A stretch of DNA of 64,000 bases from a virus: the IMG/VR virus record IMGVR_UViG_3300042549_010246, positions 1-64,000 of that record; one strand, written 5' to 3'. Made by a program: the position numbers and the translations under genes. Of the stretch, positions 45,670 through 64,000 are shown in pieces. Every line of letters begins with the position of its first letter. Position 1 is the stretch's first letter. The notes under the pieces are model-generated. The model worked only from the letters and a program-made list of their open reading frames with translations, had not been told where the DNA came from and did no database searches.

Positions 45670-46433
45670 CCAATATTTTAACCACGAGTTTAGGAAGAAA
45701 CATTAATACCGTAGAGGGTAATGGTCTTGCTATATTCGTTGACGACACGGATTTCGTGTTGAAGTTAAAAGACGTTGATGGCAATATACAACCTGTAACA
45801 GACTTCACAGGTAGCGGTGGAACGAGCGGTGGTGGAATACAATCCATCAATGCCTTGACAGCACCCGCGCAATTTTTGGTGACAGGTACTTCAGGAAATG
45901 ATTTTGCGGTACAGTCTTCAGGCAATACACATACCTTTAATTTGCCAAATGCGAGTACAAGCGCACGAGGTGTAGTTAGCACGGGCCCACAAACAATCAA
46001 AGGGATAAAAACATTTACAGACAATGCATTTTTTCAAGGCGATGTTGATATTTTAGGTACGCTTACAGCGGAAGCAAAATCGTTCTTGATTCCACACCCC
46101 GACCCTGACAAACAAGGGTGGGATTTACAACACGGAAACTTGGAGGGTGGCGAACACGGTATTTATCACCGTGGCCGTCTTCAGGGGACAAATATGATAT
46201 ATCTACCTTCATATTGGAAGTTTTTGGTGAGTCAGCATACCATTACGGTACACTTGACAAGTGCCAAAGGCAACTTCAATTATTTCGTAGAAGATGTGAC
46301 TTTAGAAACTATTAGAATTGCAAAATCCGAGGGTGATTGGTACTCTTATGATTGCTATTTTATAATTCACGCTGAAAGACGAGATATTGGCAAATTGAAG
46401 GTGGAAATTACACCTCAAGAAAAGCAATATTGA
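45666..46433 (+). CDS. Fibre or spike-associated protein
   Basis: N-terminus shared with the previous gene; KSFLIPHP...LEGGEHGIYHRG domain typical of viral fibres. Confidence 0.6.
   Translation: MTNILTTSLGRNINTVEGNGLAIFVDDTDFVLKLKDVDGNIQPVTDFTGSGGTSGGGIQSINALTAPAQFLVTGTSGNDFAVQSSGNTHTFNLPNASTSARGVVSTGPQTIKGIKTFTDNAFFQGDVDILGTLTAEAKSFLIPHPDPDKQGWDLQHGNLEGGEHGIYHRGRLQGTNMIYLPSYWKFLVSQHTITVHLTSAKGNFNYFVEDVTLETIRIAKSEGDWYSYDCYFIIHAERRDIGKLKVEITPQEKQY

Positions 46434-64000: not shown

What the first reader, a model, noticed from the sequence alone, without database searches (positions are those of the whole stretch)
46433..64000. Candidate virus-encoded system that builds and O-glycosylates a giant collagen-like fibre
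Seen: three tightly packed multi-enzyme genes (GT4+FkbM; FkbM+GT25-like; GT4+Aah/TibC-like). The last overlaps the start of a >3,890 aa G-X-Y protein in which most non-Gly residues are Ser/Thr. Known: Aah/TibC enzymes add heptose to serines of the adhesin encoded next to them; GT25 domains occur in eukaryotic procollagen galactosyltransferases; FkbM enzymes are O-methyltransferases. Inference: the TibC-like enzyme primes Ser, GT4/GT25 extend the glycan and FkbM caps it. This would give a glycan-coated virion fibre (or infected-cell surface filament) in which sugars may replace Pro/Hyp in stabilising the helix.
Basis: partly seen in the sequence, partly recalled or inferred. Interest (0 to 1): 0.95.

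Follow-up and report, generated by a model that had tools for sequence, protein, structure and literature searches.

The report
Virus sugar-coating kit for giant collagen-like fibre
A lake-water virus encodes three fused sugar-adding and methyl-adding enzymes, one a true relative of the E. coli adhesin-glycosylating enzyme TibC, directly ahead of its own 5,338-residue proline-free Gly-Ser/Thr collagen-like fibre. This pairing recurs across many viruses, so the fibre is probably the enzymes' target, but no sugar has been observed on it.

Summary
Seven genes (44785 to contig position 69016) are packed with 1-8 nt overlaps or a 10-nt gap:
- a 294-aa Ser/Thr collagen-like protein
- a 255-aa unknown
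- GT4+FkbM
- FkbM plus a GT-A domain
- GT4 plus a TibC/Aah-type domain
- a giant G-X-Y fibre
- a 225-aa unknown

The fibre runs past the window to 68339. It is 5,338 aa with 1,576 triplets, Ser/Thr fills 86% of X/Y positions, and the repeats hold no Pro. It ends in a Peptidase_S74 trimerising chaperone.

The TibC-like domain passes the curated Aah/TibC model (302 bits, cut-off 200). It keeps the catalytic Asp, the ADP-heptose contacts and all four iron-finger cysteines. 'GT25-like' holds only at fold level: GT-A, with GT25 and GT13 tied.

Linkage is conserved. 33 of 37 viral loci with enough upstream DNA carry G-X-Y genes. 12 of 47 contigs with a (GSS-GTS)3 motif carry the enzyme, against 0 of 47 with a (GPx)6 motif.

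Glycosylation itself, the sugar, the order of the enzymes and helix stabilisation are all inferred. This scan has reported the same pairing many times on other DNA, including a close relative of this virus. I found no published description.

The parts
44785..45669 (+). Small (294 aa) Ser/Thr-rich collagen-like protein with 41 G-X-Y triplets. It sits where relatives keep their collagen-like gene, about 5.8 kb upstream of the TibC-like domain.
   Evidence: Pfam Collagen 2.7e-17. Sequence and composition (S/T 59% of X/Y, no Pro). Position compared with relatives. ATGA overlap with the next gene.
45666..46433 (+). 255-aa protein of unknown function between the small collagen gene and the enzymes.
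   Evidence: phrog_28536 3.1e-27 and phrog_17490 8.5e-24, both of unknown function. No Pfam or NCBIfam hit. Homologues in L006, L013, L067 and L032.
46433..48409 (+). ORF1: GT4 glycosyltransferase (about nt 46943-47326) fused to an FkbM methyltransferase (about nt 47831-48301).
   Evidence: Pfam; TIGR01444 8.7e-23. The N-terminal GT4 (aa 1-325) is conserved in 52 related loci. Its aa 327-656 are a paralogue of ORF2 aa 6-334 (47-49% identity to L006/L013 copies).
48420..50183 (+). ORF2: FkbM methyltransferase (about nt 48855-49331) fused to a GT-A-fold glycosyltransferase domain (about nt 49431-50168).
   Evidence: Pfam FkbM 9.9e-14. C-terminal domain: no Pfam hit. Conserved in 33 loci. Invariant E-x-D in a 23-sequence alignment. 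AF2 model pLDDT 81.5. Foldseek top hit COLGALT1, E 1.2e-9. VIA: GnT-I Z 15.3 and COLGALT1 Z 14.7.
50180..52330 (+). ORF3: GT4 (about nt 50654-50995) fused to a TibC/Aah-type protein O-heptosyltransferase domain (nt 51176-52294).
   Evidence: TIGR04414 3.9e-90, 302.5 bits, cut-off 200. TibC 4RAP E 4.5e-54 over aa 23-385. D427, S545, K549, R608 and W627 mapped by hand onto TibC D110, T226, K230, R286 and W305.
52160..52249 (+). Cys-x2-Cys...Cys...Cys cluster (ORF3 aa 661-690), equivalent to the TibC iron finger.
   Evidence: It aligns with TibC Cys339/342/358/370. The paper names these four as the Fe ligands. The motif was located.
52323..52637 (+). Fibre N-terminal globular domain (aa 1-105); no signal peptide is visible.
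   Evidence: Homologues only in L006 (96%) and L013 (58%). No Pfam family.
52638..53303 (+). Fibre collagen-like segment 1 (aa 106-327).
   Evidence: Pfam Collagen 9.7e-87 for the first 1,000 aa.
53304..53627 (+). Fibre globular insert 2 (aa 328-435).
   Evidence: Homologue in L006 only.
53754..54239 (+). Fibre globular insert 3 (aa 478-639). It belongs to a large family of beta-rich 'head' domains that usually end a protein.
   Evidence: 2,830 representative proteins at E<=1e-3, mostly with the domain at their C-terminus. Only weak C1q-type sequence hints: Pfam C1q E 0.1; cerebellin E 0.13 and exosporium protein E 0.52.
54240..64000 (+). Main collagen-like shaft of the fibre. It continues beyond the window to contig position 67838 (aa 640-5172). 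The C-terminal 166 aa then follow, with Peptidase_S74 at about 68049-68228 and the stop at 68337-68339. A 225-aa unknown gene (68339-69016) overlaps the stop by 1 nt.
   Evidence: S74 E 1.1e-16. SDKRFK motif. The DNA repeats are only 65-87% alike. The relative G001 has the same end on a 4,190-aa open frame. Homologues of the 225-aa gene follow S74 fibre genes in L049-L051 and L034.

Best explanation
This is a late-gene module of a freshwater virus that makes a very long trimeric fibre and, most likely, O-glycosylates it in the host cytoplasm before or during assembly.

Shown:
- The fibre is a 5,338-aa protein with Gly at every third position over 1,576 triplets. Ser or Thr fills 86% of the other positions.
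- It ends in a Peptidase_S74 intramolecular chaperone, the module that trimerises phage fibres and spikes and then cuts itself off.
- The gene ahead of it encodes a full member of the Aah/TibC protein O-heptosyltransferase family, fused to a GT4 enzyme.
- The two genes before that add a second GT4, a GT-A glycosyltransferase and two FkbM methyltransferases.
- The pairing of this enzyme clade with Ser/Thr-type G-X-Y genes is conserved and specific across viruses.

Inferred:
- The TibC-like domain puts the first sugar on Ser (perhaps also Thr) of the G-S-S / G-T-S triplets. The sugar is probably a heptose from host ADP-heptose, because the adenine-, phosphate- and heptose-contacting residues are kept.
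- The GT4 and GT-A domains extend it to a short oligosaccharide.
- The FkbM domains O-methyl-cap it.
- The dense glycan coat takes over the helix-stabilising and solubilising role that Pro/Hyp have in animal collagen.
- The product is a glycan-coated virion fibre of the order of 1 micrometre.
For: (1) Family membership.
- TIGR04414 scores 302.5 bits against a cut-off of 200, while LPS heptosyltransferase models score 16-44 bits against cut-offs of 134-467.
- TibC 4RAP aligns at E 4.5e-54 over nearly its full length. No LPS GT9 structure appears at E<1.
- The catalytic base and 3 of 4 sugar-binding residues are identical, and the fourth is T to S. All four Fe-binding Cys are kept.

(2) Same layout as the proven enzyme-substrate pairs. 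On E. coli and Paraburkholderia plasmids the heptosyltransferase gene lies directly upstream of its AIDA-type substrate gene and abuts or overlaps it. Here ORF3 overlaps the fibre start by 8 nt.

(3) Conserved linkage.
- Of 37 viral loci with at least 6 kb upstream of the TibC-like domain, 33 have same-strand G-X-Y runs there, and 30 of these are at least 60% Ser/Thr.
- None of 32 loci cut short on that side has such runs. Downstream flanks have them in only 5 loci.
- The same holds in the 735-kb phage LR756501 and in Microcystis phage Mel-JY01, and in MAG contigs of several phyla.

(4) Specificity. 12 of 47 IMG/VR contigs with a (GSS-GTS)3 DNA motif have a TIGR04414 hit, including 4 of the 5 that are at least 90% complete. 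None of 47 contigs with a (GPx)6 motif has one. Fisher p = 2.2e-4.

(5) The accessory enzymes travel with it. The ORF1 GT4 occurs in 52 loci and the ORF2 GT-A in 33, always between the collagen/S74 gene and the GT4+TibC-like gene.

(6) Local acceptor context. The commonest Ser contexts in an AIDA-I passenger are SSG and xSG. The fibre is made of SSG (606) and TSG (400).

(7) Precedent for the stabilising role. (Gly-Pro-Thr)10 becomes triple-helical only when the Thr residues are galactosylated, and BclA and Riftia cuticle collagen carry glycosylated Thr (as summarised in PMC11923368).
Against: - No sugar has been seen on any such fibre. All links are genomic.
- The virus has no ADP-heptose pathway genes: PF01467, PF13580 and PF00294 are absent. 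Among five large relatives, only one has a clear RfaE domain II and none has GmhA. Heptose therefore depends on an unknown host.
- TibC's stereoselectivity residue Pro300 is Gly here.
- The hydrophobic tip of the beta-hairpin thumb (F265/V266), needed for the TibC dodecamer, is W583/E584. The enzyme is also fused to a GT4. Its quaternary structure, and how it grips a collagen-type substrate, cannot match the TibC-TibA complex.
- Some relatives linked to the same repeats lack the iron-finger cysteines or the whole finger.
- In most relatives the collagen gene lies 4-6 kb upstream rather than adjacent. In this virus the conserved partner could therefore be the small 294-aa protein as much as the giant fibre.
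- A Pro-free, almost uncharged Ser/Thr sequence has never been shown to form a triple helix.
Confidence: 0.6

Rival explanations
1. The glycosyl- and methyltransferases remodel the host cell surface (LPS, capsule or S-layer glycans), for example to block superinfection. They lie near fibre genes only because both sit in the variable host-recognition region of phage genomes.
For: This is the reading in print for glycosyltransferases in the tail-fibre hypervariable region of pelagimyophages (PMC7029224). GT4, GT-A and FkbM families are common in O-antigen and capsule synthesis (established knowledge). The contig has a further stand-alone GT4 at 12555-13781.
Against: - The key enzyme is a BAHT-family member, whose characterised members glycosylate proteins, not LPS (PMC4358343). 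It falls far below the LPS heptosyltransferase cut-offs.
- The association is with Ser/Thr-type G-X-Y genes specifically, 12/47 against 0/47 for Pro-type repeats.
- The association is positional and same-strand.
- The stop-start overlap with the fibre gene mirrors Aah-AIDA-I.
Confidence: 0.13
2. The cassette does glycosylate a viral protein, but the G-X-Y region is not a collagen triple helix. It would be an extended, mucin-like bottle-brush spacer, or the true acceptor would be the small 294-aa protein or another virion protein rather than the giant fibre.
For: - The repeats hold no Pro and almost no charged residues, so they lack both known stabilisers of bacterial collagens.
- In most relatives the partner gene is a shorter protein 4-6 kb upstream, matching the 294-aa gene here.
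- A third gene (17020-18450) carries (GSQ)n, which shows that Gly-Ser repeats are used more widely in this virus.
Against: - Gly is kept in register in 1,576 of about 1,599 triplets, although the DNA repeats are only 65-87% alike. A mucin-like spacer does not need that constraint.
- The only breaks are 23 single G-to-A triplets (ASS/ATS).
- The protein ends in a trimerising S74 chaperone.
- The enzyme gene overlaps the giant fibre gene.
Confidence: 0.17
3. The extreme length of the fibre is an assembly artefact of a 13.6-kb repeat in short-read metagenome data. The real gene would be much shorter.
For: Logan contigs of four independent lake runs break up inside the repeat, none bridges it, and thousands of false joints map there.
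Against: - The repeat copies are diverged at the DNA level (65-87% matches), which makes collapse or expansion less likely.
- The related contig G001 (88-97% protein identity) carries the same N-terminus and S74 end on a 4,190-aa open frame.
- L013 has at least 3,300 aa.
- Exact pieces of 300-800 bp from independent runs match at many places along the array (table 8).
Confidence: 0.1

Closest known systems
TibC-TibA and Aah-AIDA-I of E. coli (bacterial autotransporter heptosyltransferases, BAHT; TIGR04414; PDB 4RAP/4RB4)
   Same: - The enzyme family is the same: above the curated cut-off, aligned over nearly the whole TibC chain, with the catalytic Asp, ADP-heptose contacts and Fe-binding Cys4 kept.
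- The enzyme gene lies directly upstream of, and overlaps, a long repetitive Ser-rich protein gene.
- The local Ser-Gly acceptor context is shared.
- The soluble enzymes carry no visible signal peptide, so action in the cytoplasm is expected.
   Different: - The presumed substrate is a G-X-Y collagen-like fibre of a virus, not a beta-helical autotransporter with 19-residue repeats.
- The enzyme is fused to a GT4 and accompanied by a further GT4, a GT-A and two FkbM domains, which suggests an oligosaccharide rather than single heptoses.
- The thumb tip needed for the dodecamer is not conserved.
- In the tree, the viral and collagen-linked enzymes form a clade separated from the autotransporter-linked ones by a long, fully supported branch.
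BclA of Bacillus anthracis/cereus exosporium and Riftia cuticle collagen (glycosylated-Thr collagens)
   Same: Collagen-like repeats rich in Thr. O-glycans stand in for hydroxyproline. The filaments are trimeric with a globular head (literature as summarised in PMC11923368).
   Different: BclA repeats are GPT with Pro, a few dozen to a few hundred triplets long. They carry rhamnose-based glycans made by unrelated enzymes. Here there is no Pro, there are 1,576 triplets, the enzyme is BAHT-type, and the host is a virus.
Phage collagen-like tail fibres with a Peptidase_S74 intramolecular chaperone (for example endosialidase-type tailspikes, T5 pb1)
   Same: A C-terminal S74 domain (PF13884) with the Ser...Lys motif (SDKRFK). 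The shaft is trimeric. PHROG tail-fibre families hit the collagen parts.
   Different: This fibre is ten to fifty times longer than usual phage fibres and made only of Ser/Thr. It comes with a dedicated glycosylation cassette. No tail, portal or terminase gene was recognised on this contig.
Collagen glycosylation by COLGALT1 (GT25)/LH3 in animals and by Mimivirus L230/R655/R699-type enzymes
   Same: The ORF2 C-terminal domain has a GT-A fold. Its best Foldseek matches are COLGALT1, followed by Mimivirus R655. The theme of a virus glycosylating its own fibres is shared.
   Different: No sequence-level GT25 signal was found. GnT-I (GT13) ties structurally. There is no lysyl hydroxylase, and the repeats have almost no Lys to hydroxylate, so the acceptor chemistry must differ.

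Membership tests
BAHT (Aah/TibC autotransporter O-heptosyltransferase, TIGR04414) | Scores above the curated equivalog cut-off and above the LPS heptosyltransferase models | tested here: met
   302.5 bits against a cut-off of 200, E 3.9e-90. RfaQ/RfaC/RfaF-type models score 16-44 bits against cut-offs of 134-467.
BAHT (Aah/TibC autotransporter O-heptosyltransferase, TIGR04414) | Full-length similarity to the solved TibC protomer, including the N-terminal beta-barrel and the catalytic domain | tested here: met
   ORF3 aa 337-705 align with TibC aa 23-385 of 406, E 4.5e-54.
BAHT (Aah/TibC autotransporter O-heptosyltransferase, TIGR04414) | Catalytic base Asp110 and sugar-nucleotide contacts Thr226, Lys230, Arg286, Trp305 | tested here: met
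   D427, S545 (conservative), K549, R608 and W627, mapped by hand from the alignment. The residues are named in PMC4358343 and the letters were checked.
BAHT (Aah/TibC autotransporter O-heptosyltransferase, TIGR04414) | Iron finger: four Cys (TibC 339, 342, 358, 370) | tested here: met
   C661, C664, C678 and C690 align with the four Cys. Iron binding itself was not tested.
BAHT (Aah/TibC autotransporter O-heptosyltransferase, TIGR04414) | Hydrophobic beta-hairpin thumb tip (Phe265/Val266) that builds the dodecamer ring | tested here: not met
   The aligned residues are W583/E584, with a 4-residue insertion nearby. The oligomeric state is unknown.
BAHT (Aah/TibC autotransporter O-heptosyltransferase, TIGR04414) | Partner substrate is an adjacent AIDA/TibA-type autotransporter with strand-loop-strand repeats | tested here: not met
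   The adjacent gene is a G-X-Y collagen-like fibre. Plasmid members do sit next to AIDA-type genes. In the tree the two kinds are separated.
BAHT (Aah/TibC autotransporter O-heptosyltransferase, TIGR04414) | Transfers heptose from ADP-heptose to Ser of a protein | not testable with these tools
   Needs biochemistry. The contig lacks ADP-heptose synthesis genes.
Collagen triple-helix repeat proteins (PF01391) | Uninterrupted Gly-X-Y periodicity | tested here: met
   Pfam E 9.7e-87 on the first 1,000 aa. There are 1,576 triplets in 26 runs, broken only by 23 single ASS/ATS triplets and three globular inserts.
Collagen triple-helix repeat proteins (PF01391) | Known stabilisers: Pro/Hyp or charge pairs in X/Y | tested here: not met
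   There is no Pro in the repeats and few charged residues. X is S 935, T 499; Y is S 1092, A 194, T 189.
Collagen triple-helix repeat proteins (PF01391) | Forms a trimeric triple helix | not testable with these tools
   Only indirect support: the C-terminal trimerising S74 chaperone.
Peptidase_S74 intramolecular chaperone (PF13884) | Domain model match at the C-terminus, with the Ser...Lys self-cleavage motif | tested here: met
   E 1.1e-16, 61.3 bits against a cut-off of 22, full model 1-58. The sequence STSDKRFKENV is present. The assignment of the dyad rests on my knowledge of endosialidase chaperones. Cleavage was not tested.
GT25 (COLGALT1 / LPS beta-1,4-galactosyltransferase family, PF01755) | Sequence match to the family model | tested here: not met
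   No Pfam family at E<=1 for ORF2 aa 304-587. A profile of 23 homologues finds no glycosyltransferase in PDB sequences.
GT25 (COLGALT1 / LPS beta-1,4-galactosyltransferase family, PF01755) | GT-A fold with a metal-binding acidic motif, closest to GT25 structures | tested here: inconclusive
   The GT-A fold is clear and E-x-D is invariant. Foldseek ranks COLGALT1 first at E 1.2e-9. VIA ties GnT-I (GT13, Z 15.3, rmsd 3.3, 194 aligned) with COLGALT1 (Z 14.7, rmsd 3.4, 206 aligned).
FkbM methyltransferases (PF05050 / TIGR01444) | Domain model above cut-off | tested here: met
   ORF1: 49.7 bits (Pfam) and 81.4 bits (TIGR). ORF2: 52.3 and 67.1 bits. The cut-offs are 22.7 and 37.7. The substrate is unknown.
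GT4 (Glycos_transf_1, PF00534) | Domain model above cut-off | tested here: met
   ORF1 33.2 bits and ORF3 40.0 bits against a cut-off of 26.4.

The most novel reading that the evidence does not exclude
Aquatic viruses carry a self-contained collagen maturation pathway. A virus-specific clade of TibC-type enzymes, with GT4, GT-A and FkbM partners, hyper-O-glycosylates Ser/Thr in Pro-free G-X-Y chains. In this pathway sugars, not hydroxyproline, make a micrometre-long triple helix possible. The module also moves between unrelated virus types, from T4-like and megaphages to this 85-kb virus, which shows no recognisable tail, portal or terminase genes and may have a jelly-roll capsid.
Probability: 0.25. 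Interest if true: 0.85.

Novelty: new variant of a known kind. Interest (0 to 1): 0.7.

Why it matters
BAHT enzymes are known only as virulence-adhesin glycosylators of Proteobacteria. Here they appear as a large virus-borne clade: at least 517 stretches in IMG/VR and 3,506 relatives in the protein collection. This clade is tied to a different substrate class.

If confirmed, this would be:
- the first dedicated protein-glycosylation system for phage or virus fibres of this kind
- a natural test of the 'sweet is stable' idea that O-glycans can replace hydroxyproline in collagen
- a reason to re-read the many 'LPS-modifying' glycosyltransferases in fibre regions of marine and freshwater phages

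A glycan-coated, micrometre-long fibre would also change how adsorption range and host capture are pictured for planktonic viruses. Pro-free, enzyme-glycosylated collagens could interest biomaterials work as well.

Tried and rejected
- GT25 by sequence: Pfam at E<=1 found nothing. A 23-sequence profile against PDB sequences gave only chance hits.
- ADP-heptose supply: PF01467, PF13580 and PF00294 are absent from the contig. In five large TibC-positive relatives, RfaE domain II is over its cut-off in one and weak in two, and GmhA is in none. The donor question stays open.
- Promoter and terminator scans gave counts no better than shuffles, or only marginally better.
- No RNA holder was listed among public runs, so nothing can be said on expression.
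- Read laying found no contig bridging the repeat. Cover inside the repeat is swamped by look-alike repeats from other organisms.
- The protein atlas gave no usable hit (scores under 0.8) for the capsid candidate or the 225-aa gene.
- The profile of fibre insert 3 against PDB sequences gave only weak C1q-type hints (E 0.13-0.5).
- The capsid-candidate model was poor (pLDDT 54.9). Its fold matches were weak, with Z at most 6.2 and mostly viral jelly rolls. The virus type is therefore not settled.
- No tRNA genes.
- I did not send a complex-prediction job. An enzyme with its substrate is a case the tool itself calls rarely informative.
- Literature searches for heptosyltransferase or TibC together with collagen-like, phage or virus terms found no paper making this link. 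The library is not complete.
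Full report
**What is there**

The window is the first 64 kb of an 84,705-bp IMG/VR virus record that CheckV rates 100% complete. From 44785 to contig position 69016, seven + strand genes are joined by ATGA, TGATG, ATGGCTAA or TAATG overlaps, or by a 10-nt gap. In order they are:
- a 294-aa Ser/Thr collagen-like protein
- a 255-aa unknown
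- ORF1
- ORF2
- ORF3
- the giant fibre
- a 225-aa unknown

Pfam and NCBIfam confirm GT4+FkbM for ORF1, FkbM for ORF2, and GT4+GT9 for ORF3. ORF1 aa 327-656 and ORF2 aa 6-334 are paralogues.

**The fibre**

The G-X-Y frame opens at 52323 and runs past the window to 68339, giving 5,338 aa.
- It holds 1,576 triplets in 26 runs.
- The only breaks are 23 single ASS/ATS triplets and three globular parts (aa 1-105, 328-435, 478-639).
- Ser+Thr occupy 86% of X/Y positions, and the repeats contain no Pro.

The last 166 aa carry a Peptidase_S74 intramolecular chaperone (E 1.1e-16) with the SDKRFK motif. That module marks a trimeric fibre that trims its own C-terminus.

At 0.286 nm per residue (textbook value), the main shaft (aa 640-5172) would be about 1.3 micrometres long if it is a triple helix.

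The + frame is the real one. It has a start coupled to ORF3, a Pfam Collagen match of 9.7e-87 and the S74 end. The 3,208-aa frame on the other strand is a by-product of the repeat.

The DNA copies are only 65-87% alike, yet Gly stays in register. That points to selection on the protein periodicity.

The exact length is not independently bridged. However, a relative with about 90% protein identity has the same ends on a 4,190-aa frame.

**The key enzyme**

ORF3 aa 333-705 pass the curated Aah/TibC equivalog model (302.5 bits, cut-off 200). All LPS heptosyltransferase models fail by a wide margin. Against solved structures, the only strong hit is TibC (E 4.5e-54, aa 23-385 of 406).

I used the residues named in the TibC structure paper (PMC4358343) and mapped them by hand through that alignment, checking the letters.

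| TibC residue | Role | Here |
|---|---|---|
| D110 | catalytic base | D427 |
| K230, R286, W305 | ADP-heptose contacts | K549, R608, W627 |
| T226 | ADP-heptose contact | S545 |
| Cys339/342/358/370 | iron ligands | C661/664/678/690 |
| F265/V266 | thumb tip that builds the dodecamer | W583/E584 (not kept) |
| P300 | stereoselectivity residue | G622 (not kept) |

So this is a family member by sequence and active-site criteria, but with a different oligomerisation surface and an N-terminal GT4 fusion.

**The 'GT25-like' domain**

ORF2 aa 304-587 have no Pfam match but are conserved in 33 related loci, with an invariant E-x-D. An AlphaFold model from 23 homologues (pLDDT 81.5) has a GT-A fold. 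Foldseek ranks human COLGALT1 (GT25) first (E 1.2e-9) and Mimivirus R655 next. VIA-align ties GnT-I (Z 15.3) with COLGALT1 (Z 14.7). It is a GT-A glycosyltransferase, and the GT25 assignment stays open.

**Is the linkage real?**

A profile of the TibC-like domain finds at least 517 stretches in IMG/VR and 3,506 proteins in the large collection. JGI already names many of these 'autotransporter strand-loop-strand O-heptosyltransferase'.

- Among the 86 fetched viral loci, 37 have at least 6 kb upstream of the domain. Of these, 33 carry same-strand G-X-Y runs, and 30 are at least 60% Ser/Thr. The runs typically end 4-6 kb upstream.
- The 32 loci cut within 2.5 kb carry none. Downstream flanks carry them in only 5 loci. 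This acts as an internal control.
- The pairing also holds in a 735-kb megaphage, in Microcystis phage Mel-JY01, and in MAG contigs labelled as bacteria and archaea.
- The reverse test also holds. Of 47 contigs picked only for a (GSS-GTS)3 DNA motif, 12 carry the enzyme, including 4 of the 5 near-complete ones. Of 47 contigs picked for a (GPx)6 motif, none does. Fisher p = 2.2e-4.
- The S74 fibre end, the 225-aa gene, the ORF1-type GT4 and the ORF2-type GT-A domain recur in the same neighbourhoods.

In most relatives the order is collagen gene, one or two small genes, then the enzymes. In this virus the 294-aa gene holds that place. The giant fibre directly downstream is a feature of its own small clade (L006, L013).

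**Relation to the known family**

On plasmids of E. coli and Paraburkholderia, the homologous gene sits immediately upstream of an AIDA-type autotransporter gene and abuts or overlaps it. The layout here is the same.

In a maximum-likelihood tree of 76 domains, the autotransporter-linked enzymes, plus three from Negativicutes contigs, are split from one clade by a fully supported branch of length 0.93. That clade holds all viral, MAG and collagen-linked sequences.

The local Ser context is alike. SSG and xSG dominate in an AIDA-I passenger, and SSG and TSG build the fibre.

**Mechanism, with steps marked**

Shown:
- enzyme family and active-site conservation
- gene coupling
- conserved and specific co-occurrence
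- trimerising end of the fibre

Inferred:
- The TibC-like domain O-glycosylates Ser (and perhaps Thr) of the repeats in the cytoplasm, probably with heptose from host ADP-heptose.
- GT4, GT-A and FkbM domains elongate and methylate the glycan.
- The coat stabilises and solubilises a Pro-free helix. The precedent is glycosylated Thr in synthetic (GPT)10, BclA and Riftia collagen, as summarised in PMC11923368.

The virus has no heptose-pathway genes, so the donor is the weakest link.

**Context**

The stretch is held by at least 20 lake-water metagenome runs from 20 studies, so this is a recurrent freshwater virus.

No terminase, portal, HK97 capsid or tail gene was recognised among some 40 ORFs scanned. 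A 233-aa protein proposed by other readers as the capsid protein is extremely conserved: 1,382 relatives, the top 120 at 61-98% identity. Its model is beta-rich but poor, and it gives only weak jelly-roll matches. The tailless-virus idea is compatible with this but unproven.

**Novelty and standing**

I found no paper that links BAHT enzymes to collagen-like or viral fibres. The nearest printed reading treats such phage glycosyltransferases as host-LPS modifiers.

Within this scan the same pairing has been reported many times on other DNA: 274 notes in at least 197 genomes. These include a follow-up on a close relative of this virus with the same cassette. This is therefore a further, independently tested instance rather than a first sighting.

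What this case adds:
- the longest fibre so far
- direct enzyme-fibre gene overlap
- the Ser/Thr-versus-Pro specificity control
- the fold of the GT-A partner
- a virus without recognisable tailed-phage hallmarks

Noticed in passing
window 35612-36313: A 233-aa protein, which other readers propose as the capsid protein, is extraordinarily conserved. It has 1,382 relatives, the best 120 at 61-98% identity, on contigs up to 132 kb, and no Pfam family. The AF2 model is beta-rich but weak (pLDDT 54.9). The best fold matches are viral jelly rolls at Z of at most 6.2, which is inconclusive.
   Followed up: partly
window 17020-18450: A 476-aa protein holds 41 triplets of almost pure (Gly-Ser-Gln)n. 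This is a third Gly-Ser repeat protein in the virus and another possible glycosylation target.
   Followed up: partly
window 28038-29153: An ORF fuses DUF2958 (2.3e-12) to a RelA/SpoT nucleotidyltransferase domain (3.8e-16). It may be a virus-encoded alarmone synthetase.
   Followed up: no
window 12555-13781: A further stand-alone GT4 glycosyltransferase (phrog_2170, 1e-39) lies 33 kb upstream of the cassette. Whether it belongs to the same pathway is unknown.
   Followed up: no
window 21828-24737 and 24757-28041: Two very large ORFs (969 and 1,094 aa). The first has several winged-helix/PadR/FUR-like stretches. The second has no family at all.
   Followed up: no
L002 5547-8568 (contig 71546-74567), minus strand: A RecT-like annealing protein (phrog_148, 2.4e-44) lies next to a weak exonuclease match. 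This is a phage-type recombination module in a convergent gene block. A bidirectional hairpin at L002 5431-5452 separates the blocks.
   Followed up: no
L148 / G035 (IMGVR_UViG_3300027973_000059, 66,344 bp): A complete viral record with inverted terminal repeats also carries a TibC-like gene (683-aa frame) and a (GSS-GTS) motif. It has no homologue of this virus's capsid candidate or ATPase. The module therefore sits in yet another virus type.
   Followed up: partly
L007-L010 and L011-L012: Some virus TibC-like enzymes linked to the same Ser/Thr repeats have lost the four iron-finger cysteines (L009 type) or the whole finger module (L012 type). The finger is therefore not essential for the collagen-linked clade.
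   Followed up: partly
L236 2641-17820 (contig 52641-67820): Summed contig depth over the repeat in four lake metagenomes is hundreds to thousands of times that of the flanks (3-14) at 90% likeness. Near-identical (GSS/GTS)n coding repeats from many other organisms or viruses are therefore very abundant in lakes.
   Followed up: no
window 53754-54239: The fibre's third globular insert belongs to a family with 2,830 representative proteins, and in most of them it is the C-terminal head. Here it is internal, about 4,700 residues from the C-terminus.
   Followed up: partly
window 43866-44378: A 170-aa protein with a LEA_2 domain (3.4e-6) sits just upstream of the module, among many small predicted membrane proteins.
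   Followed up: no
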